Source: Dehalococcoidia bacterium (GTDB lineage Bacteria > Chloroflexota > Dehalococcoidia > UBA6926). From it: a stretch of DNA of 36,021 nt. Below the pieces are notes generated by a model. That model searched no databases. It was not told the origin of the DNA and worked only from the letters and a program-made list of their open reading frames with translations. The DNA lies in contig DAOUKW010000077.1 of assembly GCA_034420915.1 (NCBI GenBank), forward strand, positions 1 through 36,021, read 5' to 3'. A program made the translations under genes and the position numbers. Of the stretch, positions 1,832 to 17,721 are shown in pieces. Each line of letters begins with the position of its first letter. The stretch's first letter is position 1.

Positions 1832-4246
1832 GTGGAATGCCGCGGACTGCACTGGTCGGACCAGGCAGCCAATCGGAGTGACGATTTGAGCCGACAGGAT
1901 GAGCGAGACCGAGAGAACGCGGCCCTCCGTGACCGCCTATCCCGCCTGAGCGAGGCCGGACTCCGCATCAACGAAGACCTGGACTTCGACACGGTGTTGC
2001 AAGAGGTGGTGGACGAGGCGCGATCTCTCACCTCCTCGCGCTACGGGGCGATCACCGTCTTTAATGAGGTTGGGCATATACCCGACTTCATCGTCTCCGG
2101 CTTGACCCGGGAGGAGCACCAGGGGTTTTGGGACATGCCGGAAGGGCCGGGATTCTTCGAATACCTCAGCAGCCTTGCCGAGCCCCTGCGGGTCCCGGAT
2201 ATCGAGGGCCACCTGAGAGAACTGAACATGCCTGAGTTCGTGCCCTCCGTACCGGTGACCTCCCTGCTGGTAGCCCCGATTCGCCACAGGGGCGTCGCGG
2301 TCGGCACCATCTATGTGGCTCACGGGGCGGATGGAAAGGAGTTCACGCAAGAGGACGAGGAGACCCTGGTTCTTTTTGCCTCGCAGGCGGCGATGGCCAT
2401 CGCCAACGCCCGCCGGCACCGGGAGGAGCAGCGGGCCAAGGCGGACCTGGAGACACTGATAGACACGTCTCCCGTTGGCGTGGTCGTCCTGGATGCGTTG
2501 ACGGGGGCCCCCAAGTCCTTCAATCGGGAAACCCGGAGGATCATCGACACCATACGGAATGCCGGGCAGTCACCCGAGCAGTTGTTGGAGGAGTTGACTT
2601 TCAGGCGGGCCGATGGACGGGAGGTCTCCCTGCGGGAGTTCCCGATGGCCGAGCTCCTCAGCACGGGAGAGACTGTACGGGCCGAGGAGATTGTCATGCG
2701 CGCCGCTGACGGGCGGAGCGTCACGGTACTACTCAACGCCACCCCCATCCTCTCCAAGGAAGATACGGTGGAGTCTGTCGTCGTCACGCTGCAGGACATG
2801 GCGGACGTGGAGGAACTGGAGCGGCTGCGGGCTGACTTCCTGGCGATGGTGAGCCACCAGCTGAGAACTCCTCTGACCTCTATCAAGGGCTCCGTCTCTA
2901 CGATTATGGATGCGGAGACGGACCTCGACCCTGCCGTGGTCCGCCAGTTCCTTCGGATCATCGAGGACCAGACCGATCACATGAACGCGCTGGTTGCAGA
3001 CCTGCTCGACGTGGCCCGTATCGAGACGGGAACGCTGCCGGTCAATCCGGAACCTACAGAGGTGGCCGTACTGGTGGATAGGGCACGCAGCGCCTTTGTC
3101 ACCGCAGGAGGCAGGAACAACCTCGCAATCGACGTTGACCCGAACCTGCCCCTGGTGATGGCAGACAGGCGGCGCATCGTCCAGGTGCTCAGCAATCTGC
3201 TGTTCAACGCGACCGATAACTCGTCAGAGTCATCCCTCATCAGGGTGACCGCTGTGTGGAATGGCGTTCACGTTGCGATGTCGGTGGCCGACGATGGGCG
3301 GGGCATCCCTGCGGAGAGGCTGCCGCACCTGTTTCGCAAGTTCTCTGCGACAAACTCCGAGGAGCATGGAGGGGACACGGGGCTTGGCCTCGCCATCTGT
3401 AAGGGCATAGTGGAAGCGCATGGGGGCCGCATCTGGGGCGAGAGCGACGGGCCGGGAATGGGGGCGCGTTTCACTTTCACCCTTCCATCTGTCGAAAACT
3501 CCGGAAGCGGCGCGGTCGACAGATCTTCCCCGACCTCAACGCAGCGTGAACTACGGGTGGAGGAGCGGGTGCGCGTTCTGGCCGTGGACGACGACCCCAA
3601 CGATCTCCGTTACATCCGCGACACACTTGCAAAGTCGGGCTACGAACCGATCGTCACCGGAGAGCCGGAGGAGGCGCTGCGCCTCGTGGAGAAGGGTAGG
3701 CCGGAGCTTGCGCTTCTGGATCTGATGCTCCCGGGAACGGACGGTATCGAGCTGATGAAGGAAATCCTCGATGTGGCCGATGTGCCGGTCATCTTCCTGT
3801 CTGCGTACGGACGGGAAGAACTGGTTGCCAGGGCATTCGACATGGGGGCCACGGATTATGTCGTAAAGCCGTTCTCCCCGACGGAACTCTCGGCGAGGAT
3901 CAGGGCAGCCCTGCGCAGACGGACGGCCGCAGAGCCGTCGGAGCCTTACGTGGTGGGCAACCTGACCATCGACTACACCGGGCGCAGGGTAACCCTTGCC
4001 GGAAATCCCGTCCATCTCACGCTGACTGAGTATCGCGTGCTGGGCGAACTCTCGGCCAATGCAGGGCAGGTGGTGACGTATGAGCGCCTTTTGGCTCGGG
4101 TCTGGGGTGCGAAGAACGCCGGGGACGTGAGGCCCATGCGCACCATCGTGAACAAAATCCGCCGCAAGCTGGGAGAGGACACCCAAAGGCCTGCTTATAT
4201 CTTCACCGAGCCCCGCGTGGGATACCGGATGCCGAGAGGGGAGTAG
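1832..4246 (+). CDS. Cytoplasmic hybrid sensor histidine kinase fused to a complete OmpR-family response regulator (GAF-PAS-HisKA-HATPase-REC-winged helix)
   Basis: GAF-like N-terminus (SSRYGAITVF...VAPIRHRGVAVGTIYV). PAS-like segment (LIDTSPVGVVVLD...). H-box FLAMVSHQLRTPLTSI. ATPase motifs (DDGRGIP, GDTGLGLAICKGIVEAHGGRIW). REC (VLAVDDDP...LALLDLMLPGTDG...VVKPF). OmpR-type wHTH (LTLTEYRVLGEL...RVGYRM). No hydrophobic TM segment. Start is uncertain: GTG 1832 per track, or TTG 1886 preceded by GGAG (1875..1878). Confidence 0.9.
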   Translation: MECRGLHWSDQAANRSDDLSRQDERDRENAALRDRLSRLSEAGLRINEDLDFDTVLQEVVDEARSLTSSRYGAITVFNEVGHIPDFIVSGLTREEHQGFWDMPEGPGFFEYLSSLAEPLRVPDIEGHLRELNMPEFVPSVPVTSLLVAPIRHRGVAVGTIYVAHGADGKEFTQEDEETLVLFASQAAMAIANARRHREEQRAKADLETLIDTSPVGVVVLDALTGAPKSFNRETRRIIDTIRNAGQSPEQLLEELTFRRADGREVSLREFPMAELLSTGETVRAEEIVMRAADGRSVTVLLNATPILSKEDTVESVVVTLQDMADVEELERLRADFLAMVSHQLRTPLTSIKGSVSTIMDAETDLDPAVVRQFLRIIEDQTDHMNALVADLLDVARIETGTLPVNPEPTEVAVLVDRARSAFVTAGGRNNLAIDVDPNLPLVMADRRRIVQVLSNLLFNATDNSSESSLIRVTAVWNGVHVAMSVADDGRGIPAERLPHLFRKFSATNSEEHGGDTGLGLAICKGIVEAHGGRIWGESDGPGMGARFTFTLPSVENSGSGAVDRSSPTSTQRELRVEERVRVLAVDDDPNDLRYIRDTLAKSGYEPIVTGEPEEALRLVEKGRPELALLDLMLPGTDGIELMKEILDVADVPVIFLSAYGREELVARAFDMGATDYVVKPFSPTELSARIRAALRRRTAAEPSEPYVVGNLTIDYTGRRVTLAGNPVHLTLTEYRVLGELSANAGQVVTYERLLARVWGAKNAGDVRPMRTIVNKIRRKLGEDTQRPAYIFTEPRVGYRMPRGE

Positions 4247-4300
4247 GCTGCGAACAATGAAACCTGTTGTGCCCGGCGGCGATGATCCGTCCAACAGATT

Positions 4301-6949
4301 ATGATGCGCAGGGGATTGCGACCGGTTGTCACGATTGCGCTTTTCTTCGCCATTACGGGCACAGCATGCGCCGACGCGGCACCGAGGCCAGGCTCCTTCT
4401 CCACGCCCACCAACACGCGGCAACCTGTTCCATCTCCCATCGTGTTGAATATCCAGTCCGATTCCAACACACCGGCGCCCAGCCCGACGCCGATTCCTTT
4501 GCCCGCGCCGAGTGCCCCAACCACGCCGGTTCCGACAGCAACACCTGTGTTGAACCTCGGGCCAACGCCGATTCCGATTGTTGTCCCGCCGTCGCACCTG
4601 GCCTCGGAACGGGTGGCGCTCGCCGTCATTCATAGGGCGATGGGCGGGAGTGTCTACAGTGACATACGGAATTGGTTGAGCGATGACCCTTTAGGGAAAT
4701 GGCACGGAGTGACAACCGACGAGAATGATAGGGTCATTGGGCTTGAGCTGGTGAATGCGGAGCTTACAGGGAGCATCCCGCCGGAAATTGGCAATCTTAC
4801 TCACCTGCAGACTCTCACAATTGCCGGCAACAGGGAGATGAGAGGGCCCATTCCTCCGGAGATTGGAAACCTGACCAACCTGAAGGAGCTTACCCTTAGC
4901 GCGACCGGCTTGTTGGGAGAAATCCCGCCGGAGATCGGCTCTCTAACCAACCTTGAACGTCTGACCATCTCCCATGACGGGTTGGGAGGTCCCATCCCGG
5001 AAGAGCTTGGCAATCTGACCAAGCTCACCTCATTGGATCTCTCCGGAAACCTGCTGAACGGAACGATTCCAGGTTCGCTTGGCAGGTTAACCAATCTCAC
5101 TGAGCTGAACCTTTATTCCAATATAGTGAACGGTCCTCTTCCCGAAGAGCTCTTCGAGCTGGAGAACCTGAAGACTCTAACCCTTTCAAGAAACGAGTTG
5201 GACATCCCCTTTCCCCGGGGTGTAATCAGTTTCCCCAACCTGGAAAACCTCCACCTGGGATACGCCGGGTTGACGGGACCAATCCCACTTGAATTGAGCG
5301 GCATGCAGAAGCTGAAGACATTGGACCTATTCGGGAACTCCCTTGTCGGGCCTATTCCGCCTGAAATCGGTGAGATGACGGCCCTTGAAACGCTGCAGCT
5401 TGGAGGCAATGAACTCACCGGACCTATACCAGAGGAACTGGGCAATCTTCGAAACCTGCAGGGCCTCTTCATCAGCGAGAATACGCTAACAGGGTCGATC
5501 CCGACATCACTTTGGGAACTGAACTTGCTGCAAACAATGAATCTCAAAGAGAACCGCTTGTCCGGCCAGATTCCGCATGAAATAGGCGGACTGTCGGAGC
5601 TGGTTACGATTGACATGTCCAACAACGCTTTGACAGGGTCCATTCCACCTGCATTGCTCGAGCTCCCTGCCATCCAGTCGGTAAATCTCTCCCGGAACAG
5701 CCTGTCCGGACGTATCCCTTCGGAGTTCCCTGACTCAAGCACTTTGCACACCCTGAATCTCTCTCACAACGATATTGGCGGGGTCATTCCGAATGAAATT
5801 CAAAGGTTCTTGAGCCTTCGATTCCTGGACTTATCAGGAAATAAGCTCACCGGTGGCATCCCCGTGGAATTCAGGGATATGCAGTCCTTGGAAGAAGTTG
5901 ACCTGTCCATGAACGACTTGTCAGGCCCACTCCCCCCCGAACTCGGAGAGATGAGCCTCATAAACGTGCTCGATCTTTCGGGCAATCGTCTTACTGGAAA
6001 CGTGCCGCCTGAGTGGGCCGGTATGAGGAAATTGAGATCGCTGAATCTCCGGGATAACGATCTCAGGGGCAAGGCGCCGACTGCGCTTCCCGATAGTGAA
6101 CTGACGCTTGATCTGTCCGGGAACAGGTTCAGCGGTAAGATTCCCGCCGAGCTTGGCGCGGCGAAACGCCTGAAGTCCCTTGACCTTTCCCGGAACGAGC
6201 TGACCGGGTGGATTCCTGAAGAACTGGGGGTATTGACCAACCTGGAGTCTCTCGATCTGTCCATGAACGGCCTGACCGGTCCCATCATTCCCAGGCTTGC
6301 AAATCTGTATCGTCTAAAGCGGCTCGACCTTGCCGACAATGGATTGTCCGGCGAGATTCCAACTACTATTGACGCCCTCCGGAACCTCAAGCACCTGGAC
6401 CTTTCTGATAACAGTCTCACCGGAACGATTCCTCCGCCGCTGGGTCATCTCAACGCCCTCGTGCACCTTGACCTCTCCGGCAATCGTCTCGAAGGCCCCA
6501 TCCCGACAGAACTTGGTAACATTTCACGTCTGACCTTCCTCTCCCTGTCAAACAACGATCTAACGGGTTCGATCCCTCCGGAACTGGAGCGCCTTTGGCA
6601 ACTGGAAACGCTGGCCCTTTCGGATAACCGATTGAGCGGCGACATCCCTGCCGGGATACGTACAGATCGATTACGCCACGTAGATCTCTCAAGAAACCAG
6701 TTGACCGGCCGGATCCCACCCTGGCTTGGGGGCCATTTCAATCTGGAGTCATTGCTGCTTTCGGAAAACCGGTTGAGGGGGACTATCCCGGCCCGATACG
6801 GTGAAGTTCCGAAACTGGCAGAGTTGCGAGTAGAGGGCAACCATCTGGAGGGTTGTGTTCCGGAGACCCTGGCGACTATTGATGTGTTGGTTGTCAGTCC
6901 GCAGGAGGGCGACACGGAAACATTGCCGTTCTGCCGGAAGGATCCATGA
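4301..6949 (+). CDS. Secreted (lipobox-like signal) giant leucine-rich repeat protein, about 30 plant-specific-type 24-aa LRRs
   Basis: MMRRGLRPVVTIALFFAITGTAC signal, Pro/Thr linker, N-cap (..NWLSDDPLGKWHGVTTDENDRVIGLEL). About 30 units of L..L..L.L..N.LtG.IP.ElGnL, counted by hand. C-terminal cap NHLEGCVP...LPFC. Confidence 0.9.
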   Translation: MMRRGLRPVVTIALFFAITGTACADAAPRPGSFSTPTNTRQPVPSPIVLNIQSDSNTPAPSPTPIPLPAPSAPTTPVPTATPVLNLGPTPIPIVVPPSHLASERVALAVIHRAMGGSVYSDIRNWLSDDPLGKWHGVTTDENDRVIGLELVNAELTGSIPPEIGNLTHLQTLTIAGNREMRGPIPPEIGNLTNLKELTLSATGLLGEIPPEIGSLTNLERLTISHDGLGGPIPEELGNLTKLTSLDLSGNLLNGTIPGSLGRLTNLTELNLYSNIVNGPLPEELFELENLKTLTLSRNELDIPFPRGVISFPNLENLHLGYAGLTGPIPLELSGMQKLKTLDLFGNSLVGPIPPEIGEMTALETLQLGGNELTGPIPEELGNLRNLQGLFISENTLTGSIPTSLWELNLLQTMNLKENRLSGQIPHEIGGLSELVTIDMSNNALTGSIPPALLELPAIQSVNLSRNSLSGRIPSEFPDSSTLHTLNLSHNDIGGVIPNEIQRFLSLRFLDLSGNKLTGGIPVEFRDMQSLEEVDLSMNDLSGPLPPELGEMSLINVLDLSGNRLTGNVPPEWAGMRKLRSLNLRDNDLRGKAPTALPDSELTLDLSGNRFSGKIPAELGAAKRLKSLDLSRNELTGWIPEELGVLTNLESLDLSMNGLTGPIIPRLANLYRLKRLDLADNGLSGEIPTTIDALRNLKHLDLSDNSLTGTIPPPLGHLNALVHLDLSGNRLEGPIPTELGNISRLTFLSLSNNDLTGSIPPELERLWQLETLALSDNRLSGDIPAGIRTDRLRHVDLSRNQLTGRIPPWLGGHFNLESLLLSENRLRGTIPARYGEVPKLAELRVEGNHLEGCVPETLATIDVLVVSPQEGDTETLPFCRKDP

Positions 6950-9381
6950 GCATGGGCTTCTTTACAGATAAACGACGTCTTCAGCAGCTGGGAACCGTTG
7001 CCCTTTTCACACTCAGTGCCTTTGTGCTGACGGTTGCCTGCGACCGTATCGAGCAAGAGACAGCCATTGTCACTCCCGGATCGACAGCCGGGCCAATTCC
7101 GGGCTTGGCGCTGCCCACCTCAACGCCAATTCCAACGCCCAGGGTCTTACCCACTCCAACTCCAACCAGTCTTCCCACACCCACTCCCTTGCCGACCGCC
7201 ACGCCGGTGCCGTCAATCGAAACGGACCGCGCCGCTCTTGTTGCCTTATTCGAGGCGACGGGGGGTGAAAACTGGCTGCACAAAGAGAACTGGCTGAGTG
7301 ACGAGCCAATGGGAACCTGGTCCGGTGTTACAACCCACGGGGACGGGCGGGTTGGCAGACTTTATCTGCAGGAGTACGGATTGTCCGGCGAGCTCCCACC
7401 CGAGATTGGAAACCTCACCAGGCTCAGAGGAATGTGGCTTGGCTCCAACCAACTGACTGGGCGGATTCCAGGCAGACTCGGCAATCTCACAGAGTTGGAG
7501 ACACTGGACCTTGAAGGCAACGAGTTGACCGGTCCAATCCCGCAGAACCTTGCCAATCTAACTGGGCTGATCCACCTCAGGCTTGCCGGGAACCGACTGG
7601 TAGGGCGCATTCCCCCTGATCTTGCCTTCCTGTCCGAGATCGAGCTGTTGGATCTCGCCGACAACGAACTGAGGGGGCCAATTCCGCTTGCGCTTGGCAA
7701 CATGACCAAGATGGAAGACCTGCTGCTTGGAGGCAATACACTGAGCGGCCCAATCCCACCCAATCTGGTCAACCTGAGCGACTTACGAGTGCTGGATCTG
7801 TCCGACAATGAGTTCACTGGCTCAATACCGACCGAGCTAGTCCATCTGACCAACCTTGAGACGCTGGACGTGTCCCAAAACATGTTGACGGGGTCGATAC
7901 CGATTGAGCTTACAAATATGCTCGCTCTGCACGTCCTCAATCTCTCGCAGAACAGACTGTCCGGCCCGATCCCTCCCGAATTCCAAAACCTCCTCAACCT
8001 CAGAAAACTGCACCTGGCTACCAATCAGTTGACAGGCTCCGTGCCTACGCAACTGGCAAACCTCTCCAACCTGAACGTTCTGGATCTCTCAAACAACTTG
8101 CTGACGGGCGAGTTCCCTTCGGAAATCGAGAAACTCAGAGACCTGCATGTCCTTAATCTCGACGGCAACAGCATCGCCGGGGTTCCAGTATCCGATCGAC
8201 CGGCGCTCATCGCGTTCTATCACGCAACGGGCGGGGATAACTGGCACAACAAGAGCAACTGGCTCAGCGATACTCCGATTGGGACATGGCATGGCGTGAA
8301 GAGTGACGGGGGGCGGCGTGTTATTGAACTACGGCTGGGCAACAACAACCTTGTGGGCCACATCCCCCCTGAGATCGGCAACCTGGCGCAGATGCAGTTT
8401 CTCAGTTTGACAGCCAATCAACTGAGCGGTGTCCTTCCTCCGGAATTCGGCAATCTGTCCAGCCTTGAGACCGCGTTTCTATTTCGCAACCAGCTGACAA
8501 CTCCAATCCCGAGTGAAGTGGCAAATCTCACGAGCCTGGAATTGCTGGACCTGTCACAGAATCCGTTGGATGACCTATTCCCCGTCGCATTGACGAGGCT
8601 GACAGGACTGGAAAAACTGACGCTTTCGAACTGCGGGCTGCGCGGTCGCATTCCGGCTGTCATCGGCAACATGGAGAACCTAAGGGAGTTGGAGCTTTCA
8701 CACAACAGCATTACGAGCCCTATCCCGGAGTCAATTACAGATCTCGATAGATTGTCGAATCTTGATCTGAGGGATAATGCACTTAGCGGTTCATTCCCGC
8801 GAGAAGTGGTTGAAATTGGGAGTCTAAGGTCGCTTGACCTTAGAAATAACGAGCTGACCGGCCCCATTCCGTCCTCACTGGCTCAATTGGAAGACATGTC
8901 CTATCTGTCTCTCGGCGGGAACGAGTTAACCGGACCGATCCCGCCCGAAATTGCCCGGATGAGCAGCCTTGGATGGCTCCTCCTTTCGGGTAATGAATTC
9001 TCTGGCTCCATTCCGTCCTGGATAGGAAGCCTGGAGGAGTTGTTGTATTTGGACCTCTCCCACAATCGACTAACCGGCCCTATCCCGACCGAGCTCGGCA
9101 ATCTCGAGAAGCTGCTCTATATGTCCCTGCAGGGCAATGAATTAAGCGGACCAATACCGGCCGAGTTCAGGAATCTGAAGGGCCTGCAGAGCTTTATCAT
9201 TTCTGACAACGAGATTACCGGCTCGATCCCCCCATGGATTGGCGAGATGCCAGGTATGTGGCGTATATGGGTTGATGGGAACAGGCTTGAGGGCTGCATT
9301 CCGAAACCACTCATGTACCTGAGCGAATTGGCTGTGAATCCGCAGCGAGGGCAGCAGACTGAATTGGAGTTCTGCGGGTAG
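6946..9381 (+). CDS. Secreted lipoprotein-like LRR protein with two N-cap+LRR modules (about 12 + 14 repeats)
   Basis: ATGA start/stop overlap with the upstream gene (6946..6949). Signal ..FTLSAFVLTVAC, then Pro/Thr linker. Cap 1 is DRAALVALFEATGGENWLHKENWLSDEPMGTWSGVTT (from 7225). Cap 2 is DRPALIAFYHATGGDNWHNKSNWLSDTPIGTWHGVKS (8191..8337). C-terminal cap NRLEGCIP...LEFCG. Confidence 0.9.
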   Translation: MSMGFFTDKRRLQQLGTVALFTLSAFVLTVACDRIEQETAIVTPGSTAGPIPGLALPTSTPIPTPRVLPTPTPTSLPTPTPLPTATPVPSIETDRAALVALFEATGGENWLHKENWLSDEPMGTWSGVTTHGDGRVGRLYLQEYGLSGELPPEIGNLTRLRGMWLGSNQLTGRIPGRLGNLTELETLDLEGNELTGPIPQNLANLTGLIHLRLAGNRLVGRIPPDLAFLSEIELLDLADNELRGPIPLALGNMTKMEDLLLGGNTLSGPIPPNLVNLSDLRVLDLSDNEFTGSIPTELVHLTNLETLDVSQNMLTGSIPIELTNMLALHVLNLSQNRLSGPIPPEFQNLLNLRKLHLATNQLTGSVPTQLANLSNLNVLDLSNNLLTGEFPSEIEKLRDLHVLNLDGNSIAGVPVSDRPALIAFYHATGGDNWHNKSNWLSDTPIGTWHGVKSDGGRRVIELRLGNNNLVGHIPPEIGNLAQMQFLSLTANQLSGVLPPEFGNLSSLETAFLFRNQLTTPIPSEVANLTSLELLDLSQNPLDDLFPVALTRLTGLEKLTLSNCGLRGRIPAVIGNMENLRELELSHNSITSPIPESITDLDRLSNLDLRDNALSGSFPREVVEIGSLRSLDLRNNELTGPIPSSLAQLEDMSYLSLGGNELTGPIPPEIARMSSLGWLLLSGNEFSGSIPSWIGSLEELLYLDLSHNRLTGPIPTELGNLEKLLYMSLQGNELSGPIPAEFRNLKGLQSFIISDNEITGSIPPWIGEMPGMWRIWVDGNRLEGCIPKPLMYLSELAVNPQRGQQTELEFCG

Positions 9382-9733
9382 ATCCTGACGATTACGCGTC
9401 CCCGACAGCTTACGAGAGCCTGGCTTCACTTAGTCCCTGGTCTCGTGGTGAGTTTGAGAAAGCCAAACCGGAGCAAGGAGTACCCCTGGGCGAACTGTAT
9501 TGCGAACCTTCCTATTGAAGGTTGAGTTGAAAGTGGCGTTTGGTAAGAGGAAACGGGGCGGGTAGGAGCGTAACGTCTTTGCGGGTCTAGTACTGTAGGA
9601 CAGGCCCACGGATGATTCTCAAGGGCATAGTGACCACCAGCTCAGGTCTTCCCGACTGAGAATTGCAGCACGAATCTGTATGGCGGTCTCATATAGGCGG
9701 GTGATTCTCCTTGGATATCTGCACATGCAAACG

Positions 9734-9821
9734 CTAGAGACTCTTCATTGAACTGGTAAGTGCCGAATCACACTCGCAAGGCGCCAATGTGTTTGCTCCA
9801 AACGAGAGCATTGCTGCAACT
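9734..9821 (-). repeat. Copy 1 of an 88-nt conserved non-coding element; abuts and overlaps the stop codon of the 9820..12804 gene
   Basis: Ungapped alignment with 13385..13472 gives 69/88 identical positions by hand count, including the identical 26-mer ctggtaagtgccgaatcacactc-context, gtttgctc and ctgcaact. Confidence 0.75.
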
Positions 9822-12804
9822 AGGAGTCGCAGAAAGGCAGGCCGAGGCGAACGAGATCGTTGTCAGCTTGGTTATTATCGCGCTCGCCCGTGATGGCGAG
9901 CAACTTGGCCGGTATGCATCCCCTTAGCCGGTTGTGGCCAAGCCACAGCACTTCCAGCTTGGCGAGATTGCCCAGTTCGGAGGGTATCATCCCGCTCAAC
10001 TGGTTTCCGAAGAGCGACAGGTGCGTTAGGTTGGCGAGGCCGCCCAGTTCTGGCGGGATGGGCCCGCTCAACCGGTTCGTGGAGAGTAACAGATGCGTCA
10101 GGTTGGCAAGGCTGCCCAGTTCCGTCGGTATCGTCCCGCTCAGCTTGTTACCACTAAGGTTCAGGTCTTCCAAATGAATGAGATCGCCCAGCCTGGTCGG
10201 TATTTCGCTAGTCAACTGATTGTGTGAAAGTCTCAGAGATTGCAGCTTGGCGAGATTGCCCAATTCCGCCGGTATCTCTCCACTCAACTGGTTAGACCAA
10301 AGCCCCAGCGCTTGCAATTTGGCAAGACTGCCAAGCTCCGCCGGTATCTCCCCTGTCAACTCGTTGTTACCGAGAGACAGGAATTGCAGCTTGGCGAGAT
10401 TGCCCAGTTCCGTCGGTATCGTCCCGCTCAACTGATTATCGCGGAGCGACAGATGCCTCAGGTCAGCGAGGCTCCCCAGTTCTGTCGGTATCGGTCCGCT
10501 CAACTGATTCCCCCCCAGGTCTAGTGCAACGACAGAACCGTCACAGTCGGTGAGTACCCCGTGCCATTGGTCCAGGGGACTGTCGCTCAACCAGTTCTGA
10601 CTGTTCTTCCACGACGCGCCGTTGGTGGCATGATGGAGCGCGACTAATGCGTTCCTCACTTCACTTGAGGGCGCGTCCTTGGGTGGTGGGGTATAGCCCT
10701 GTATCGGCCTGCCATGAAGACAGTTATAGAGAAAGCGATAGTCATCCCGTTTTGATTGCGGAGTGTTCTTCAAGAACGTCTGGTAAATCTTGTCCTCCGT
10801 CGCCTCTGTGCTCCTGCTGGTCTCGTACAATTCCCGCAGAGCGGACAATACCACCTCGTGCCCCAAGATGTGGTGCAATCCGGTCAGGAAGTGAAGGCCC
10901 AAGCGATATGGGCAGGTATTAACTCGCCCATCCTCCACTACACTCAATCCACTCGTGATCCACTCCTGCACATTCATCGTGCTCACGGAAAAGCAATCGT
11001 CGGATATCCGTACCTTTGAAGAGATGTACTCCTCATAGAAAGAGATTTCCAGATCAGCCTCTTTCAGAACGGCGTAGCTCATCAAGAATTCCGCCGCGCC
11101 CTCGGTAAGCCATTCCGGAGTACGTGCTCCTCCTCCACCAAAATAGAAGTGTGCCATCTCGTGATACAGTACCCTCTTGCGGGAGGCTGATTTGATTGCC
11201 GCGCGTGATCCGTTATTCACTCCAGCCGCATCACTTTCGGCTATCTGGAATTCGCTTTCCAGCAAAAGGATGACATCGGACTTCGGCCACGGAACTTCCA
11301 TGAATTCCTCCAAGTGCTCGGTGGCGAAAACCATAGCGTCCAGCACAGTATGCAGCTCGTCCTCCGACCGCCCGACCGCGAAGAGGTCCACTTCGCCCGC
11401 CAGGGGAAGATCGATCGTCTCCGACCACACCACGCCGCCCCGCACCATCTCATCGAAGAACTCCTGCGAAACTATGGCGCTTCCTATCGTGACGATCAGC
11501 GCAGCCTCCTCGGCGGTCAGCCCGTCCTCCACCCACGGCTCTCGCATGAGCCGCTGCGCCCGGCTGGGATGGTTGGAGCGAATCTTCCACAGACTGGACA
11601 TGGTGTCTTGCATGAGCTGCCCGGTCTGATCCGGAATGGTCGTCACCAGCACCGCCTCGTCAAGGCGGGTACTGGCTAGGCGGGAGACCAGACTGAGCAC
11701 ATCCAACTCATCGTGCGTGACCCCGTCGGAAAGCCACAGTGAGCCCGCTACTCGCTGAGACATCGACCGGTCTATTTGGGCGAGCTCCCCAATGCGGAAC
11801 AGTGCCCGCCGTTCGGCGTTGGTGGCGCCGTCCGCGATCCACGGCAGGTTATCCGTATTGAACTCCGAAACCCTTGCAGTCACTACAGCGGAGCAGTTGT
11901 TGGTCGTGTCAGACTCACCCGATACCGGCTCAGCGCATGCGCCATAGTAGTACACGCCCGGAGTGGGCGGCGCATGCGTAAGGATTGATTCGGCGCCACT
12001 ATCAGATGGATTCAGTCTGTGAATCTGGTCCGTCCCCACTTCAGTATCTGTGGACGTGATAGTCGCGTCAGTAGAACGGTAGTAGCGCAGCGTGGTGGGA
12101 CCAGATACCCATGCACCCTGGTTCCGCACGGAGAACCTCAGTACCAGGGTCTGACCTAGCATTGGGTTGCTATCACTCACTGCTGGCTCGACCACCGTCA
12201 GATCGGGTGGAGGTGGAAGCACGGTCACGGCGACGGAGGAGGAGCAGTTGTTCGTCCTATTGGACTCGTGGGGTACGGGCGCCACGCAGGCACCATAGTA
12301 GTATGTGCCCGGCGAAGGCGGCGTAACCGTGAGTATCGACTCAGTGCTGCTTGCGGATGCCTCCAGCCTTGCCACCAGGATCGAGTCCACCTCGTCATCT
12401 TCGGTCGAGATGGTTGAGTCGGTGGAGCGGTAGTAACGTAGCGTGGTGGGGCTCGATGCCCCGGGCCCCTCGTTCCGCACAGTGGCGCTCAGCGTGAAGG
12501 ACTGGCCTCCCATAAAGTCTCTGCCGCTTACTGTTAGCAGATCTACCACCAGGTCGGGCGGTGACGGTGTCGGCGTGGGGGTCGGTGATGGCGTTGCTGT
12601 GGGGGTTGGTGATGGTATAGGAGTGTGCGCCGGGGTCGAAGTGAGTGCAGGAGTTGCCGTCGGCGCGGGTGAAGGGGTGGCGGTGGGCATCGGCGTTGAT
12701 GTTGCCTCGTCGGAGCATCCGGCGACGAGCAGGATCAGTAGTGCCGTGCCAACAACAGCCAGACTCAGCTTGGGTCTTGACATTCCGAATGCCTCACTGG
12801 ACAT
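9820..12804 (-). CDS. Lipoprotein: 2 x CARDB-like domains + MA-clan HExxH metallopeptidase + N-capped plant-type LRR module (9 repeats)
   Basis: Signal MSRPKLSLAVVGTALLILLVAGC. The more likely start is ATG 12783, preceded by GAGG; the track start is 12804. Pro/Thr linker follows. Two paralogous about 110-aa units (PDL.V......GQ...L...VRN.G...S..TTLRYYRSTD..I...D.EV......YYYGAC..PV..ES..TNNCS). HEMAH at 11149..11163, then EWLTEGAAEF. Cap VRNALVALHHATNGASWKNSQNWLSDSPLDQWHGVLTD. 9 LRRs. C-terminal cap NRLRGCIP...LPFCDS. Confidence 0.9.
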   Translation of the reverse strand: MSSEAFGMSRPKLSLAVVGTALLILLVAGCSDEATSTPMPTATPSPAPTATPALTSTPAHTPIPSPTPTATPSPTPTPTPSPPDLVVDLLTVSGRDFMGGQSFTLSATVRNEGPGASSPTTLRYYRSTDSTISTEDDEVDSILVARLEASASSTESILTVTPPSPGTYYYGACVAPVPHESNRTNNCSSSVAVTVLPPPPDLTVVEPAVSDSNPMLGQTLVLRFSVRNQGAWVSGPTTLRYYRSTDATITSTDTEVGTDQIHRLNPSDSGAESILTHAPPTPGVYYYGACAEPVSGESDTTNNCSAVVTARVSEFNTDNLPWIADGATNAERRALFRIGELAQIDRSMSQRVAGSLWLSDGVTHDELDVLSLVSRLASTRLDEAVLVTTIPDQTGQLMQDTMSSLWKIRSNHPSRAQRLMREPWVEDGLTAEEAALIVTIGSAIVSQEFFDEMVRGGVVWSETIDLPLAGEVDLFAVGRSEDELHTVLDAMVFATEHLEEFMEVPWPKSDVILLLESEFQIAESDAAGVNNGSRAAIKSASRKRVLYHEMAHFYFGGGGARTPEWLTEGAAEFLMSYAVLKEADLEISFYEEYISSKVRISDDCFSVSTMNVQEWITSGLSVVEDGRVNTCPYRLGLHFLTGLHHILGHEVVLSALRELYETSRSTEATEDKIYQTFLKNTPQSKRDDYRFLYNCLHGRPIQGYTPPPKDAPSSEVRNALVALHHATNGASWKNSQNWLSDSPLDQWHGVLTDCDGSVVALDLGGNQLSGPIPTELGSLADLRHLSLRDNQLSGTIPTELGNLAKLQFLSLGNNELTGEIPAELGSLAKLQALGLWSNQLSGEIPAELGNLAKLQSLRLSHNQLTSEIPTRLGDLIHLEDLNLSGNKLSGTIPTELGSLANLTHLLLSTNRLSGPIPPELGGLANLTHLSLFGNQLSGMIPSELGNLAKLEVLWLGHNRLRGCIPAKLLAITGERDNNQADNDLVRLGLPFCDS

Positions 12805-13043
12805 GATGAAGTCCGAGGATTTGTGGAAGAATTCGCTTCACACAAGTTACTAATCCGGCGCCCATCACAGGGCTATGCAGTGCCCTCACCGTCCGGATCC
12901 ATGTTCCAGTCAGCGTAGACGCCCGTGCGGACCGTGGGCGACTGTAACTCGCCGGTTGTCTTGGCGACACCCCCAACGCTCGTGGGCTGGCCGGAGGTCT
13001 AAGTGTCCAGGTATGGCTGGAGGTGATGACGCCACGATTCTCC

Positions 13044-13346
13044 TCAGTCAGCCCAAAACCACGTCTTGAAGGATGCGGTGCAAGACGCCATTCCCAACAT
13101 CACGCCCACTCCAAGGCCGAAGAATACGCCGCGAGCGGAGCGTCCTCTTGCCATTAGTGCCCCGCCGATAATCGTGGCGATGGTCGAGCAGGCAATCATA
13201 AGAAAGATGATTAGCAGGAAGGCGAAATAATATGGGGCCTCGAAAGCCAAAGCAGCTTCTGAGGGGTCAATGGACGACAATAAGAGTACGGGCGCGATGA
13301 CAAGTGGCACCGCAGTAAGAACCAGTGCCATGCTGAACGTACGCAT
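13044..13346 (-). CDS. Small hydrophobic membrane protein (about 3 TM), function unknown
   Basis: 100-aa ORF with three hydrophobic stretches. AGGGAG lies a few nt upstream of ATG 13346. No recognisable family. Confidence 0.5.
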   Translation of the reverse strand: MRTFSMALVLTAVPLVIAPVLLLSSIDPSEAALAFEAPYYFAFLLIIFLMIACSTIATIIGGALMARGRSARGVFFGLGVGVMLGMASCTASFKTWFWAD

Positions 13347-13384
13347 GCCGACTCCCTGTCAGTGAGTTCAATGCCCAAATAACA

Positions 13385-13472
13385 CTAGGCATTCTGCATC
13401 GATCTGGTAAGTGCCGAATCACACTCTCTAGGCAACACTTTGTTTGCTCTGAGAGAGAGTGTTTCTGCAACT
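13385..13472 (-). repeat. Copy 2 of the 88-nt conserved element, upstream of the small membrane protein gene
   Basis: See 9734..9821. Contains a 9-bp perfect stem ACACTCTCT (13421..13429) / AGAGAGTGT (13454..13462). Confidence 0.75.
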
Positions 13473-13480
13473 TTTCACTC

Positions 13481-13509
13481 TTGCTGACATAAACGCAAAT
13501 GGCTAGATT
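13481..13509 (+). promoter_or_regulatory. Possible promoter of the NarL-type two-component operon
   Basis: TTGCTG (13481..13486), 17-nt spacer, TAGATT (13504..13509), about 70 nt upstream of ATG 13577. Weak hexamers. Confidence 0.25.
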
Positions 13510-13576
13510 AGTGGCCAACTACACACTGTCGTGACCGCCAAACACTCTACGCGTTCACACACTTACAGGAGAGAAC

Positions 13577-14854
13577 ATGCTTCAGGCACCTCGCCAAACC
13601 AGGGGCCTGTACTCGATGAAGGAAGTGTTCGGTGCAGTGCGGGCGCGGGTTTTTCAGATGCTCTGGCTCGACCCGGACGAGGTATCGTACGCAGCCAATA
13701 TTGCGGTGTGGGTTCGCTGGTTCCTCTGGGTCGGCGCCATAACCACTCTTGCCCACGAATCCGAGTTCACTTATTTCCAATCCCTACGCCAGACCATTTC
13801 GGTCATGCTCATGCACGTCTCAGTGGCCACCCTCAACGCCCATGTGCATTACCGTCTGCTTACCAAGCGTCGAGTGACGTGGCGTCACATGATTGTCCTC
13901 AGCGCGTTGGATCTAGCACTGATCACGGTCACCGTCGTCGATCTGGGGTACGACTCAATCTGGTTCGTCGGCTACTATCCCGCGCTTGCCATCTTCGCTG
14001 CCGTCTTCACTTCCGCTCTACTGAATCTCACCTGGACCACGGTCGCCTCCTCCATTTATGTCGGCGTGATTCTAACCGACGGGTCGGGTCTCACCTTCGA
14101 TGTGATCGATGAGAAGGCGCTCTATATAAGAGTGATTGCGATGTTCGGGGTAGTTCTTGTGATCAACTTCATCACTCGGTTCCAACGGCGCAGGGCGAGG
14201 GAGGCGATCGAAAGGGAAGGGGCGCTGCAACGAGAGCGGATCGAGCTTTCCCAGGCGATTCACGATACGGCCGCGCAGACGGCGTACATGATCGGCCTGG
14301 GCATAGACGCAGCCAAGCAGGTTGCCGGAAACTCGAACGAGGAGCTCACCTCCAGACTGGAAGCGACATCGCAGCTTTGCAAGACTGCCGTCTGGCAGCT
14401 GAGGCGCCCAATCGACATGGGTCGCATCTTCGATGGCCGGGAACTGGGCTGGACCCTGGACTCGCACGTTGCCACGTTCAGATCCATCACATCGATAGAG
14501 GCGGAGCTGAGGCAGAACGGTGCAGAGCCGCCACTTTCGGTTGAGGCAAAGAGTCGGCTGTTTACCATAGCGCATAACGCACTTGCCAACGCCTTCCGTC
14601 ATGCCGGGGCGAGCCGCGTGTTGGTCGACCTCGACTTCAGACGGGATGAACTCAGACTGTCGGTGTCGGACGACGGGGCGGGGCTTCCGGATGACTACGA
14701 GGAACGGGGCCACGGCTTCGCAAACATGCGGGCGGACGCTGAGCGTCTGGGCGGACGCCTTGTCGTTGAGGCCAGAGGCTTGACCGGGGGCGCGAGAGTG
14801 ACTTGTTTGGTGCCATTGGAACGTGGTGGAAAGGGGAGATACGTTGTCAACTGA
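13577..14854 (+). CDS. Polytopic membrane sensor histidine kinase, HisKA_3 (NarX/DesK-like) class
   Basis: AGGAGAG 4 nt upstream of the ATG. N-terminal half has multiple hydrophobic helices and no large loop. H-box LSQAIHDTAAQTAY. ATPase motifs NALANAFRHA, DDGAGLP, GHGFANM. Confidence 0.85.
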   Translation: MLQAPRQTRGLYSMKEVFGAVRARVFQMLWLDPDEVSYAANIAVWVRWFLWVGAITTLAHESEFTYFQSLRQTISVMLMHVSVATLNAHVHYRLLTKRRVTWRHMIVLSALDLALITVTVVDLGYDSIWFVGYYPALAIFAAVFTSALLNLTWTTVASSIYVGVILTDGSGLTFDVIDEKALYIRVIAMFGVVLVINFITRFQRRRAREAIEREGALQRERIELSQAIHDTAAQTAYMIGLGIDAAKQVAGNSNEELTSRLEATSQLCKTAVWQLRRPIDMGRIFDGRELGWTLDSHVATFRSITSIEAELRQNGAEPPLSVEAKSRLFTIAHNALANAFRHAGASRVLVDLDFRRDELRLSVSDDGAGLPDDYEERGHGFANMRADAERLGGRLVVEARGLTGGARVTCLVPLERGGKGRYVVN

Positions 14855-17691: not shown

Positions 17692-17721
17692 CGTCCGCCC
17701 CTCTGTTAGACTGACCAGGCC

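What the first reader, a model, noticed from the sequence alone, without database searches (positions are those of the whole stretch)
4301..9381. Two translationally coupled giant proteins built from plant-specific-type LRRs (about 30 and about 26 repeats)
Seen: hand parsing gives about 30 consecutive 24-aa repeats in ORF 4301..6949, and 12 + 14 in ORF 6946..9381. Nearly every unit carries N.L(T/S)G.IP and (E)LG(N)L. The genes overlap by ATGA (6946..6949). Both proteins end in a two-cysteine cap (NHLEGCVP..LPFC; NRLEGCIP..LEFCG), consistent with a disulfide and an oxidising extracytoplasmic location. Established: bacterial LRR effectors and adhesins (internalins, YopM, IpaH, Slr) mostly use shorter 20-22-aa repeat classes. 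The 24-aa G.IP class with an LRRNT-like cap is typical of plant ectodomains. Inference: either convergence or ancient transfer of a receptor-like ectodomain, used here without any kinase or TM.
Basis: partly seen in the sequence, partly recalled or inferred. Interest (0 to 1): 0.7.

Follow-up and report, generated by a model that had tools for sequence, protein, structure and literature searches.

The report
Surface lipoproteins built from plant-type LRRs
Two adjacent genes of an uncultured Chloroflexota (Dehalococcoidia) bacterium encode predicted cell-surface lipoproteins made of 30 and 26 plant-type 24-residue leucine-rich repeats; they are real, but they belong to a very large, mostly uncharacterised bacterial family, so they are not a special plant-to-bacterium oddity.

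Summary
ORFs 4301..6949 and 6946..9381 encode 30 and 12+14 repeats of 24 residues. Their consensus, LxxLDLSxNxL(T/S)GxIPxELGNLxx, is the published plant-specific (PS) LRR consensus. Each protein ends in a two-cysteine cap.

The best sequence and fold matches in the PDB are all plant receptor ectodomains.

The interpretation needs four corrections:
- Both proteins start with a lipobox-type signal peptide followed by a Pro/Thr-rich stalk. They are probably membrane-anchored surface lipoproteins, not anchorless.
- The N-cap is a cysteine-less derivative of an LRRNT_2-like cap. Bacterial relatives that keep the Cys pair bridge it to the plant cap.
- The C-cap does not resemble the plant C-cap beyond its LRR part.
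- The module is not rare. The N-cap profile alone matches 18,558 cluster representatives, with up to 20 caps per protein, and named relatives come from several bacterial phyla. A third gene next door (9820..12804, minus strand) fuses the same cassette to a putative metallopeptidase.

PS-type LRRs in bacteria and LRR "eukaryotic-like proteins" of sponge-associated SAR202 and Caldilineae are already published.

The genes lie in a segment that is replaced by other genes in the closest relative found. Gene B more likely starts at 6952, which leaves a 2-nt gap instead of an ATGA overlap.

Verdict: new member of a known kind, modest interest.

The parts
4301..6949 (+). Gene A, 882 aa: lipoprotein-type signal peptide, Pro/Thr stalk, N-cap, 30 PS-type LRRs including the capping unit
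   Evidence: the public gene call has the same start and length
4301..4369 (+). A signal peptide with lipobox (MMRRGLRPVVTIALFFAITGTA|C23)
   Evidence: hydrophobic segment at residues 6-27; fits the PROSITE-style lipobox pattern by my inspection of the translation; C23 is the only Cys outside the C-cap
4370..4600 (+). A Pro/Thr/Ser-rich stalk (aa 24-100, 52% P+T+S), predicted disordered
   Evidence: pLDDT below 35; 8 of 18 SNPs between two assemblies of this population fall here
4601..4732 (+). A N-cap, cysteine-less LRRNT_2-like (..ALAVIHRAMGG..NWLSDDPLGKWHGVTTD..)
4733..6814 (+). A LRR units 1-29 (24 aa each, except one unit each of 25, 22 and 23 aa)
   Evidence: periodic strand/3_10 pattern in the AF2 model
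6815..6946 (+). A capping unit 30 with Cys pair C852/C878 (NHLEGCVP...LPFC)
6946..9381 (+). Gene B, 811 aa from ATG 6946, or 809 aa from the more likely ATG 6952: lipoprotein signal, stalk, two LRR modules (12 + 14 units)
6946..7041 (+). B signal peptide with lipobox (..LFTLSAFVLTVA|C32)
7042..7218 (+). B Pro/Thr-rich stalk (aa 33-91, 56% P+T+S)
7219..7350 (+). B first N-cap (..ALVALFEATGGENW..NWLSDEPMGTWSGVTT..)
7351..8181 (+). B LRR module 1: 12 units with no Cys cap; the 12th unit runs straight into the second N-cap
8182..8319 (+). B internal second N-cap (..ALIAFYHATGGDNW..NWLSDTPIGTWHGVKSD..)
8320..9255 (+). B LRR module 2, units 1-13
9256..9378 (+). B capping unit with Cys pair C784/C810 (NRLEGCIP...LEFCG)
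9820..12804 (-). Gene C, 994 aa (987 in the public call): canonical lipobox (LVAG|C), Pro/Thr stalk, 2 CARDB domains, M1-like HEMAH...WLTEG zinc-peptidase region (HEMAH at 11149..11163), then the same LRR cassette
9823..10668 (-). C LRR cassette: N-cap, 8 units, Cys-capped 9th unit; the only array with repeats detectable at DNA level (72-bp period)
   Evidence: (pLDDT 94.5)
13044..15497 (.). Rest of the variable segment: small 3-TM protein (13044..13346, minus strand), 4-5-TM HisKA_3 histidine kinase (13577..14854, +), LuxR-type response regulator (14823..15497, +). This is context, not shown to act with the LRR proteins.

Best explanation
A and B are exported proteins displayed on the cell surface of an uncultured Dehalococcoidia-class Chloroflexota bacterium.

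Proposed mechanism, with each step marked shown or inferred:
1. Sec export, followed by lipid modification and cleavage at the lipobox cysteine (C23 in A; C32 in B, or C30 from the 6952 start). This tethers the N-terminus to the outer face of the cytoplasmic membrane. (Inferred from sequence pattern.)
2. A 60-77-residue Pro/Thr-rich disordered stalk holds the folded part away from the membrane. (Composition and low pLDDT shown; function inferred.)
3. The folded part is a plant-specific-class LRR solenoid: one continuous 30-unit solenoid in A, and two solenoids of 12 and 14 units in B. (Repeat class shown; for A a continuous 24-residue strand/helix periodicity is shown, from a moderate-confidence model; the two-solenoid arrangement of B is inferred from the repeat parse and the internal second N-cap, since no model of B was made.)
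4. Each solenoid opens with a cysteine-less LRRNT_2-like helix-strand cap. (Shown by profile comparison and model.)
5. The last solenoid of each protein is closed by a half-repeat cap stapled by a Cys-Cys disulfide. (Cysteine pattern shown; the bond itself inferred.)
6. The concave beta-sheet binds an external macromolecule. The function is therefore adhesion or ligand capture, most plausibly towards host or neighbour-cell surface components, as proposed for the LRR 'eukaryotic-like proteins' of sponge-associated Chloroflexi. (Inferred; the ligand is unknown.)

The same N-cap + n x 24 aa + Cys-cap cassette is a mobile building block. Neighbouring gene C uses it as the C-terminal module of a putative zinc peptidase, and relatives fuse it to trypsin-like, reprolysin-like, matrixin, SH3, Ig-like and fn3 domains.

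The genes are accessory: the closest relative found carries other genes in this segment.
For: Repeat class: 59 of 62 units are 24 aa with consensus LxxLDLSxNxL(T/S)GxIPxELGNLxx. This equals the PS-LRR consensus quoted in PMC2946307.

Structure:
- Cassette model pLDDT 94.5, pTM 0.91, with beta-beta-3_10 units and an N-terminal helix cap. The beta-beta-3_10 unit is the PS hallmark according to PMC5976695.
- All top 50 Foldseek PDB hits are plant LRR ectodomains, with TM up to 0.85.
- The model of A shows a continuous 24-residue periodicity from residue 145 to 850.
- By sequence, the best PDB hits are GSO1 (E 1.4e-161) and FLS2.

Export and anchor:
- One N-terminal hydrophobic segment in each of A, B and C and no other TM segment.
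- Cys directly after A/G at positions 23, 32 and 30.
- Pro/Thr-rich linkers.
- Relative P0368 from a Dehalococcoidia chromosome has the same order: lipobox, stalk, N-cap, LRR.

Caps:
- Cysteines in A are restricted to the lipobox and the cap.
- The C-cap consensus LxxLxLxxNxLxGCIPxxLRDVxxNDLxxLGLPFC has both Cys invariant in 25 cassettes.
- N-cap bridging to LRRNT_2.

Modularity and abundance:
- Cassette lengths are quantised as 79+24n.
- Fusions to many enzyme and adhesin domains.
- 18,558 cluster representatives carry the N-cap.

Organism:
- The GlyRS cluster includes MAG Dehalococcoidia and Chloroflexota entries.
- Flanking genes are 96-99% identical to Dehalococcoidia MAG OZ242019.1.

Accessory status: in that relative, the segment holding A, B, C, the small TM gene, HK2 and RR2 is replaced by a membrane protein and a different 871-aa lipoprotein.

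Literature: LRR genes are reported as symbiosis-related eukaryotic-like proteins in sponge SAR202 and Caldilineae genomes (PMC6306507).
Against: - No signal-peptide or lipoprotein predictor was available. The lipoboxes of A (GTA|C) and B (TVA|C) are non-canonical at position -3, so signal peptidase I cleavage and release remain possible.
- I did not check that this lineage has Lgt/LspA.
- The habitat of this contig was not verified. I could not resolve the sample accession. The sponge link rests on relatives' isolate names, which I recognise from memory, and on literature about the clade.
- No ligand, expression or localisation data exist.
- The disulfide is inferred from conservation only; the tools return no model coordinates.
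- The full-length model of A is only moderately confident (pLDDT 66), and its caps are poorly modelled.
Confidence: 0.6

Rival explanations
1. A and B are secreted soluble proteins. Signal peptidase I cleaves them and they are released, acting at a distance by binding or masking host or competitor molecules rather than staying tethered to the cell.
For: The lipoboxes of A and B are non-canonical at position -3 (G and T; and the translation). Many relatives have ordinary signal peptides ending in A-x-A and no lipobox: only 21 of 120 and 40 of 120 match the lipobox pattern.
Against: All three neighbouring LRR proteins place a Cys directly after a small residue at the end of the hydrophobic segment. 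C has a canonical LVAG|C. In A this is the only Cys outside the cap pair. A long Pro/Thr stalk makes most sense as a tether.
Confidence: 0.2
2. The LRR lipoproteins are extracellular ligand sensors that signal through a neighbouring two-component system. The candidates are the hybrid kinase HK1 (1832..4246), 54 nt upstream on the same strand, and the membrane kinase HK2 with its regulator RR2 (13577..15497). This would be a split bacterial analogue of plant LRR receptor kinases.
For: HK1, A and B are co-oriented with gaps of 54 nt and 2 nt or less. HK2-RR2 belongs to the same variable segment as the LRR genes. A 55%-identical HK2 homologue has a PS-LRR protein 3.7 kb away (L082).
Against: - HK1 has no TM segment, so it cannot contact an extracellular protein.
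- In 80 HK1-homologue loci, PS-LRR ORFs were found in only 5 (none of them a Dehalococcoidia or Chloroflexota record), always upstream of the kinase on the opposite strand, so the window's HK1-A-B arrangement is not seen.
- HK2-RR2 homologues (61-85% identity) usually sit next to a large surface protein, but those proteins carry a different N-terminal repeat and no PS-LRR motif. In L087/L088 the neighbour is smaller (447-617 aa: SBP_bac_5 or a protein with no Pfam hit).
- The small membrane protein between C and HK2 is not conserved.
Confidence: 0.06
3. The genes are a recent horizontal acquisition of a plant or algal receptor ectodomain.
For: The best PDB matches are plant receptors. GC and GC3 of A and B (0.56 and 0.64-0.65) are lower than in housekeeping genes of the contig (GC3 0.70-0.82).
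Against: - With a single-cassette query, none of the 120 best database hits carries a precomputed Pkinase or LRRNT_2 domain, and every hit that has a name is bacterial.
- With full-length A as query, plant proteins first appear at rank 49.
- The caps differ from plant caps: no Cys pair in the N-cap and a different C-cap.
- The cassette occurs in at least 18,558 clusters.
- The signal peptide and stalk are bacterial in style.
- The GC3 deviation is mild and is shared by other accessory ORFs on the contig.
- High similarity to plant LRRs is largely consensus-driven; about 10 of 24 positions are fixed by the class.
Confidence: 0.03
4. They are injected effectors acting inside host cells, like the Xanthomonas PS-LRR effectors XopAC, XopAE and XopL.
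For: The best NCBIfam matches are XopAC, XopAE and XopL.
Against: The scores are far below the family cut-offs (288 vs 450, 206 vs 600, 137 vs 500) and reflect only the shared repeat class. A and B have Sec-type signal peptides, a conserved Cys pair suited to an oxidising compartment, and no effector domain (Fic, E3). No secretion-system genes are on the contig.
Confidence: 0.03

Closest known systems
Plant LRR receptor kinase / receptor-like protein ectodomains (GSO1/SGN3, FLS2, MIK2, PSKR1, ERL1; also PGIP and LRX)
   Same: - 24-residue plant-specific LRR consensus and beta-beta-3_10 unit.
- Long superhelical solenoid of about 30 units, the size range of the GSO1 (833 residues) and FLS2 (759 residues) ectodomain chains.
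- N-terminal helix plus W..W.GV cap, in register with LRRNT_2.
- Extracytoplasmic location.
- Best sequence and fold matches.
   Different: - No transmembrane helix and no kinase; instead a lipoprotein signal and a Pro/Thr stalk at the N-terminus, so the anchor is at the opposite end of the protein.
- The N-cap lacks both cysteines, and Pfam LRRNT_2 does not hit it.
- The C-cap is a Cys-stapled half repeat (GCIP...NDL..LGLPFC), not the plant GN..LCG.PL..C motif.
- No island domains.
- B carries two capped modules in tandem.
Bacterial proteins with plant-specific-type LRRs: Xanthomonas XopAC/AvrAC, XopAE and XopL, and the survey by Miyashita et al. 2013 (Nat Sci 5:580), whose title reports PS-LRRs shared between plants and bacteria
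   Same: Bacterial proteins whose repeats fall in the PS class. They give the best NCBIfam matches. The existence of the 2013 survey shows the class is already known outside plants (reference lists).
   Different: From general knowledge: the Xop proteins are type III effectors that act in the plant cytosol, carry catalytic domains and have few repeats. A and B are Sec-exported, cysteine-capped LRR-only proteins from a marine-type Chloroflexota. Their scores are far below the family cut-offs. I could not read the 2013 paper itself.
LRR 'eukaryotic-like proteins' (ELPs) of sponge symbionts (SAR202, Caldilineae, Poribacteria)
   Same: Same bacterial class (Dehalococcoidia; SAR202-related MAGs are among the relatives). 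LRR genes are reported in SAR202 and Caldilineae sponge symbiont genomes and are proposed to mediate host-microbe interaction (PMC6306507). Poribacterial LRR genes often carry signal peptides or TM helices (PMC3909097).
   Different: Those papers count Pfam domains. In the passages I read, they do not describe the repeat class, the caps, the lipoprotein and stalk architecture, or the cassette modularity. The sponge origin of this contig is likely but unverified.
Surface LRR proteins of pathogens: Streptococcus pyogenes Slr (LRR lipoprotein), Listeria internalins, Leptospira LIC LRR proteins
   Same: Exported, surface-tethered LRR solenoids used as adhesins. Slr is a membrane-bound LRR lipoprotein that binds collagen (PMC3105044; title and abstract seen). 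Leptospira LIC11098 and LIC10831 are the best non-plant PDB hits.
   Different: Different repeat classes (22-23 residues, no GxIP motif), different caps (internalin cap and Ig-like inter-repeat domain), and different anchors (LPXTG or GW modules in internalins). NCBIfam internalin scores are 27-72 bits against cut-offs of 1,050-1,600.

Membership tests
Plant-specific (PS) class of leucine-rich repeats | Repeat length 23-25 residues | tested here: met
   59 of 62 units are 24 aa; the others are 25, 22 and 23
Plant-specific (PS) class of leucine-rich repeats | Consensus LxxLxLxxNxL(t/s)GxIPxxLGxLxx (as quoted in PMC2946307) | tested here: met
   Column frequencies: T/S12 75%, G13 92%, I15 81%, P16 97%, L19 58%, G20 53%, L22 69%
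Plant-specific (PS) class of leucine-rich repeats | Structural unit beta-beta-3_10 (PMC5976695) | tested here: met
   The AF2 cassette model (pLDDT 94.5) shows two strands and a 5-residue helix per unit. All top 50 Foldseek hits are plant PS-LRR structures. This is a prediction, not an experiment.
Plant LRR receptor kinase / receptor-like protein | Single-pass TM helix C-terminal to the LRRs (plus a kinase domain in RKs) | tested here: not met
   No Pkinase hit. The only hydrophobic segment is the N-terminal signal peptide. The proteins end 4 and 1 residues after the cap Cys.
Plant LRR receptor kinase / receptor-like protein | LRRNT_2 N-cap with conserved Cys pair (C.W.GV.C) | tested here: not met
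   No Pfam LRRNT_2 hit even at E<=10, and both Cys are replaced (..L/I..W.GV.T). The cap is nevertheless homologous by bridging: 98.6% to bacterial Cys-containing caps, which match plant caps at 92%, and P0283 passes the Pfam threshold.
Plant LRR receptor kinase / receptor-like protein | Plant-type C-cap (GN..LCG.PL..C) | tested here: not met
   hhalign aligns only the LRR part (columns 1-24), not the Cys-bearing tail. The plant profile contained only 3 sequences.
Bacterial lipoprotein | N-terminal positively charged region, hydrophobic region and lipobox [LVI][ASTVI][GAS]C within about 35 residues | tested here: inconclusive
   C (LVAG|C30) is canonical. A (TGTA|C23) and B (LTVA|C32) fit the looser PROSITE-style pattern but not the strict -3 position. 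No dedicated predictor was available.
Bacterial lipoprotein | Lgt and LspA processing enzymes present in the organism | not testable with these tools
   Only a 36-kb contig is available; neither gene is on it
Bacterial 'N-cap + n x 24 aa + Cys C-cap' LRR cassette (an unnamed family defined here from relatives) | N-cap DR.AL.ALY.AT.G..W....NWLSD.P...W.GVTTD | tested here: met
   All four caps of A, B and C align in the 43-sequence profile; L6, G15, W24, P29, W33, G35 and V36 are invariant. The profile finds 18,558 representatives.
Bacterial 'N-cap + n x 24 aa + Cys C-cap' LRR cassette (an unnamed family defined here from relatives) | C-cap N.L.GC(I/V)P ... L.(F)C with two invariant Cys | tested here: met
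   Present in A, B and C, with 25, 25 and 28 residues between the Cys against 21 in most relatives
Xanthomonas XopAC / XopAE / XopL effectors | NCBIfam score above the curated cut-off | tested here: not met
   288 vs 450, 206 vs 600 and 137 vs 500 bits for A
Listeria-type internalins | NCBIfam score above the cut-off; 22-aa repeats | tested here: not met
   27-72 bits against cut-offs of 1,050-1,600; the repeat length is 24
Sponge-symbiont eukaryotic-like proteins | Encoded by a sponge-associated symbiont | tested here: inconclusive
   Relatives include 'SAR202 cluster bacterium bin22' and MAGs with isolate names such as RHO1_bin, COS3_bin and SB066x_bin, plus 'Ca. Palauibacter irciniicola'. 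I recognise these as sponge-microbiome studies from memory only. The contig's own sample (SAMN17524325) could not be resolved.

The most novel reading that the evidence does not exclude
The capped PS-LRR cassette (LRRNT_2-like N-cap, 24-residue GxIP repeats, disulfide-stapled half-repeat C-cap) may be an ancient and hugely diversified bacterial surface-recognition module. Under this reading, the cysteine-containing bacterial caps that pass Pfam LRRNT_2 mark the lineage from which the ectodomains of plant or algal LRR receptors were acquired, or the reverse. In host-associated Chloroflexota the cassette would be shuffled, with variable repeat number and fusion partners, inside replaceable surface-protein segments, giving a variable repertoire for recognising host or neighbour surfaces.
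Probability: 0.12. Interest if true: 0.6.

Novelty: new member of a known kind. Interest (0 to 1): 0.3.

Why it matters
The finding adds two well-resolved examples, plus a peptidase fusion, to a very large family of bacterial surface proteins with plant-type LRRs that has been studied little beyond domain counts. That family is commonly listed among the 'eukaryotic-like proteins' thought to mediate symbiont-host interaction in sponges.

Three outputs are useful:
- An explicit cassette definition (cysteine-less or cysteine-bearing LRRNT_2-like N-cap, 24-aa units in steps of 24, Cys-stapled C-cap). This could be turned into profile models for annotation.
- The recurring architecture of lipobox, Pro/Thr stalk and LRR, which predicts surface display.
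- The observation that the genes sit in a replaceable segment.

The finding does not overturn anything. PS-type LRRs outside plants are already documented, and no function is shown here.

Tried and rejected
1. Pfam LRRNT_2 on the four N-caps and on the three C-caps at E<=10: no hit. A direct claim of a plant cap was therefore dropped in favour of the bridged homology.

2. Linkage of the LRR genes to the upstream hybrid kinase HK1. In 80 homologous loci, PS-LRR ORFs appeared in only 5, none of them a Dehalococcoidia or Chloroflexota record, always upstream of the kinase on the opposite strand, so the window's HK1-A-B arrangement is not seen. Rejected.

3. Linkage to HK2-RR2. It looked promising because precomputed Pfam lists showed LRR_8 next to several homologues. 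However, those giant proteins carry a different N-terminal repeat (..GIWSDGTTMWV..) and match none of my PS-LRR, N-cap or C-cap patterns. Only the window and L082 pair HK2 with a PS-LRR protein. Rejected as a specific link. What is usually conserved next to HK2-RR2 is a large, variable surface protein.

4. Exact look-up of A, B and C in the protein collection: not found. The sister assembly differs by a few SNPs and calls different starts for B and C.

5. Resolving the habitat through the sample accession in the literature: no hit.

6. Promoter and terminator scan of 4100..9900: no promoter-like site, and terminator-like sites were fewer than in shuffles. Uninformative.

7. DNA-level tandem repeats in A and B: none above threshold. 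Only C's array shows 72-bp repeats at 70-74% identity. The units of A and B are therefore old and individually diverged, not a recent expansion.

8. The single-sequence AF2 model of A was only moderately confident (pLDDT 66) and gave low TM scores. I therefore modelled the shorter C cassette with a 12-sequence alignment.

9. A metagenome scan with HK2 returned only 2 loci.

Full report
**1. What is there**

The window is a complete 36,021-bp contig.

A parse that keeps the LxxLxLxxN register gives:
- A: 29 full units plus a capping unit, making 30.
- B: 12 units, then a second N-cap, then 13 units plus a capping unit, making 14.

Fifty-nine of the 62 full units in A, B and neighbouring ORF C are exactly 24 residues.

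The column consensus is LxxLDLSxNxL(T/S)GxIPxELGNLxx, with G13 at 92%, I15 at 81% and P16 at 97%. This is the plant-specific (PS) consensus LxxLxLxxNxL(t/s)GxIPxxLGxLxx quoted in PMC2946307.

Pfam sees only generic LRR families.

The ATGA at 6946..6949 is real. However, the ATG at 6952 lies 9 nt downstream of a GGAAGGA motif, and it is the start used in the public gene call for a 99.9%-identical assembly of the same population (809 aa). The overlap is therefore probably a 2-nt gap. Either way the genes are packed like an operon.

**2. Structure**

- A single-sequence AlphaFold2 model of A is moderately confident (pLDDT 66). It shows a disordered N-terminus (residues 1-134) and an unbroken strand/short-helix periodicity from residue 145 to 850.
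- Its Foldseek hits are plant receptor ectodomains (GSO1, FLS2, RGFR1, PEPR1, MIK2), but with low TM scores.
- I then modelled the shorter cassette of the neighbouring protein C (282 aa) with a 12-sequence alignment of equal-length cassettes. The model is excellent: pLDDT 94.5, pTM 0.91. It has an N-terminal capping helix, a beta-beta-3_10 unit in every repeat, and a short C-terminal helix.
- The beta-beta-3_10 unit is the structural hallmark of PS-LRRs (PMC5976695).
- All 50 best Foldseek PDB matches to this model are plant LRR proteins (MIK2, FLS2, GSO1, PSKR1, LRX, PGIP), with TM up to 0.85 and rmsd of 2-3 A.
- By sequence, A matches GSO1 at E 1.4e-161 and FLS2 at 2.9e-121. The best non-plant structures are Leptospira LRR proteins.

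Repeat-class membership is therefore established as far as computation can take it.

**3. The ends of the proteins**

*Signal peptides and stalks*
- A, B and C each begin with a charged stretch, then one hydrophobic segment, then a cysteine directly after Ala or Gly: A ..ITGTA|C23, B ..LTVA|C32, C ..LVAG|C30.
- This is followed by a stretch of 50-77 residues that is over 50% Pro/Thr/Ser in A and B.
- C's lipobox is canonical. Those of A and B fit only the looser pattern.
- A relative from a Dehalococcoidia chromosome (P0368) has the same order: lipobox, stalk, N-cap, LRR.
- I conclude that these are probably lipid-anchored surface proteins on a flexible stalk.

*N-cap*
- The four N-caps in A, B and C fit a sharply defined profile, DR.AL.ALY.AT.G.NW....NWLSD.P...W.GVTTD.
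- Pfam LRRNT_2 does not detect them even at E<=10.
- A direct profile comparison with three plant caps is weak but in register (P 6e-4, probability 29%).
- Some bacterial relatives retain the plant-like C.W.GV.C pair (12 of the 120 best cassette hits).
- Their caps match the window-type cap at 98.6% probability (E 1e-15, 39 columns) and plant caps at 92% (E 5e-7).
- One of them, P0283 from a Caldilineales MAG, passes Pfam's LRRNT_2 gathering score (21.4 vs 20.7).
- The window's N-cap is therefore a cysteine-less member of the LRRNT_2 lineage.

*C-cap*
- The C-cap consensus is LxxLxLxxNxLxGCIPxxLRDVxxNDLxxLGLPFC: a final unit plus a half unit, with two invariant cysteines.
- A, B and C have 25, 25 and 28 residues between the cysteines, against 21 in most relatives.
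- Only the LRR part of this cap aligns with plant C-caps, so the cap is not plant-like.
- In A the cap pair are the only cysteines besides the lipobox Cys. This fits a structural disulfide in an oxidising compartment, but the bond itself is inferred.

**4. How common is it**

- Full-length A retrieves more than 7,900 proteins. The best hits are 1,200-1,500-aa proteins from uncultured bacteria. In these, one to eight cassettes are fused to trypsin-like, SH3, reprolysin-like, matrixin, M66, Ig-like or fn3 domains. The few named hits are Acidimicrobiales and Gemmatimonadota MAGs. Plant kinases first appear at rank 49.
- With a single cassette as query, none of the 120 best hits carries a precomputed kinase or LRRNT_2 domain, and the named ones are Chloroflexi, Caldilineales and Thermoanaerobaculia MAGs.
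- Cassette lengths are quantised as 79+24n residues, which shows gain and loss of whole units.
- The 41-column N-cap profile alone matches 18,558 representatives of 50%-identity clusters at E<=1e-3 and 7,979 at E<=1e-10. Some proteins have up to 20 caps and lengths up to about 4,900 aa.
- A and B are therefore mid-sized members of a very large family, not giants.
- The NCBIfam models that score best are the Xanthomonas PS-LRR effectors XopAC, XopAE and XopL, all far below their cut-offs.

**5. Genomic setting**

The rest of the contig is ordinary bacterial chromosome. It carries a GAF-PAS hybrid histidine kinase, a Na+/H+ exchanger, glycyl-tRNA synthetase, MoaD/E, caa3 cytochrome oxidase with assembly genes, and Ccm genes.

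The GlyRS belongs to a 90% cluster with Dehalococcoidia and Chloroflexota MAG proteins.

In the closest genome found (Dehalococcoidia MAG OZ242019.1), the flanking genes are 85-99% identical. The whole stretch holding A, B, C, the small membrane protein, HK2 and RR2 is replaced there by a membrane protein and an unrelated 871-aa lipoprotein with its own Pro/Thr stalk. The LRR genes therefore lie in a replaceable surface-protein segment.

A and B have slightly lower GC and GC3 than the housekeeping genes. Their units are too diverged to register as DNA repeats, unlike C's. Nothing suggests a recent arrival from a eukaryote.

**6. A lead that did not hold**

Because kinases flank the LRR genes, I tested whether the LRR proteins could be sensors for them.
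- HK1 has no membrane segment, and the window's HK1-A-B arrangement does not recur among its homologues: PS-LRR ORFs appear in only 5 of 80 loci, always upstream on the opposite strand.
- HK2-RR2 is highly conserved. In most of the contexts examined it sits divergently next to a small ORF and a very large surface protein.
- Those giants have a different repeat and no PS-LRR. The precomputed 'LRR_8' labels were misleading.
- A specific link between PS-LRR proteins and a two-component system is therefore not supported.

**7. Comparison with what is known**

PS-type LRRs in bacteria have been surveyed: Miyashita et al. [quoted passage not shown] I saw this paper only in reference lists.

LRR genes are reported as symbiosis-related 'eukaryotic-like proteins' in sponge-associated SAR202 and Caldilineae (PMC6306507) and in Poribacteria, often with signal peptides (PMC3909097).

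Several relatives found here carry isolate names that I recognise from sponge-microbiome studies, and one is 'SAR202 cluster bacterium bin22'. I could not verify the habitat of this contig.

Functionally, the nearest characterised analogues are surface LRR adhesins such as the streptococcal lipoprotein Slr. They use other repeat classes.

**8. Verdict**

The reading as an anchorless, exceptional plant-like ectodomain is not right.

The most likely mechanism is surface display of LRR solenoids that bind an external macromolecule. This is inferred and the ligand is unknown.

Novelty: a new member of a known kind. Interest is modest. The useful residue is a clean cassette definition, and the bridge between bacterial caps and plant LRRNT_2, which makes the origin question testable.

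Noticed in passing
window 9820..12804 (-): A third LRR protein, C, is convergent with A and B. It has a canonical lipobox, a Pro/Thr stalk, two CARDB domains, and an M1-like zinc-peptidase region (HEMAH at 11149..11163 followed by WLTEG; weak Pfam Peptidase_M1 hit, and IRAP/ERAP1 at E 5e-4 in the PDB). It ends in the same N-cap + 9-unit + Cys-cap cassette. Here the cassette looks like a targeting module for an extracellular enzyme.
   Followed up: partly
window 9955..10509: Only C's LRR array shows 72-bp tandem repeats at DNA level (70-74% identity). The arrays of A and B do not. C's units are therefore younger or homogenised, while those of A and B are old and individually diverged.
   Followed up: partly
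window 1832..4246 (+) and loci L001-L068: The soluble hybrid protein GAF-PAS-HisKA-HATPase-REC-OmpR (kinase and DNA-binding regulator in one chain, no TM segment) has 50-80%-identical homologues, often two per genome. They occur in MAGs of very different phyla: Dehalococcoidia, Caldilineaceae, Gemmatimonadota (including Ca. Palauibacter irciniicola), Latescibacterota, Acidimicrobiia and Paracoccaceae. Such high identity across phyla suggests exchange within a shared habitat.
   Followed up: no
window 13044..15497; loci L085-L093: The 4-5-TM HisKA_3 kinase and LuxR-type regulator pair is 61-85% conserved. In most contexts examined it sits divergently next to a small ORF and a 2,400-3,900-aa surface protein (fn3, Calx-beta, GSDH and SWM repeats; an N-terminal ..GIWSDGTTMWV.. 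repeat), often with recombinase or transposase genes nearby. In the window this slot holds protein C. The pair may regulate a variable surface-protein gene.
   Followed up: partly
window 4246..15897 versus L063 12379..16653: Between the conserved HK1 and Na+/H+ exchanger genes, the closest relative (OZ242019.1) carries a membrane protein and an 871-aa lipoprotein (Pro/Thr stalk, HEVMH motif, lectin-like C-terminus). The window has A, B, C, the small TM gene, HK2 and RR2 there instead. This is a replaceable segment encoding surface lipoproteins.
   Followed up: partly
window 4381..4537: Two assemblies of the same population are 99.9% identical across the regions compared. Over the 21-kb stretch 3577..24854 they differ at 18 positions, and 8 of these cluster in the Pro/Thr stalk of A. 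This indicates strain-level variation in the stalk.
   Followed up: no
proteins P0258, P0283, P0293 and 9 others: Some bacterial relatives (Caldilineales and Thermoanaerobaculia MAGs) keep the plant-like C.W.GV.C cysteine pair in the N-cap, and one passes Pfam LRRNT_2. Both cap types therefore coexist in bacteria.
   Followed up: yes
L081 16819..16918 (equivalent to window ~26383): The sister scaffold has a run of N inside the COX1 gene. This explains why COX1 is not called there and why the window's COX1 sequence is absent from the protein collection. It is an assembly artefact, not biology.
   Followed up: yes
window 17723..18816 region (genes called in L081/L084): A UPF0102 gene and two small Zn_ribbon_8 genes lie between the Na+/H+ exchanger and a trypsin-like peptidase gene (18595..19425). 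They were not examined further.
   Followed up: no
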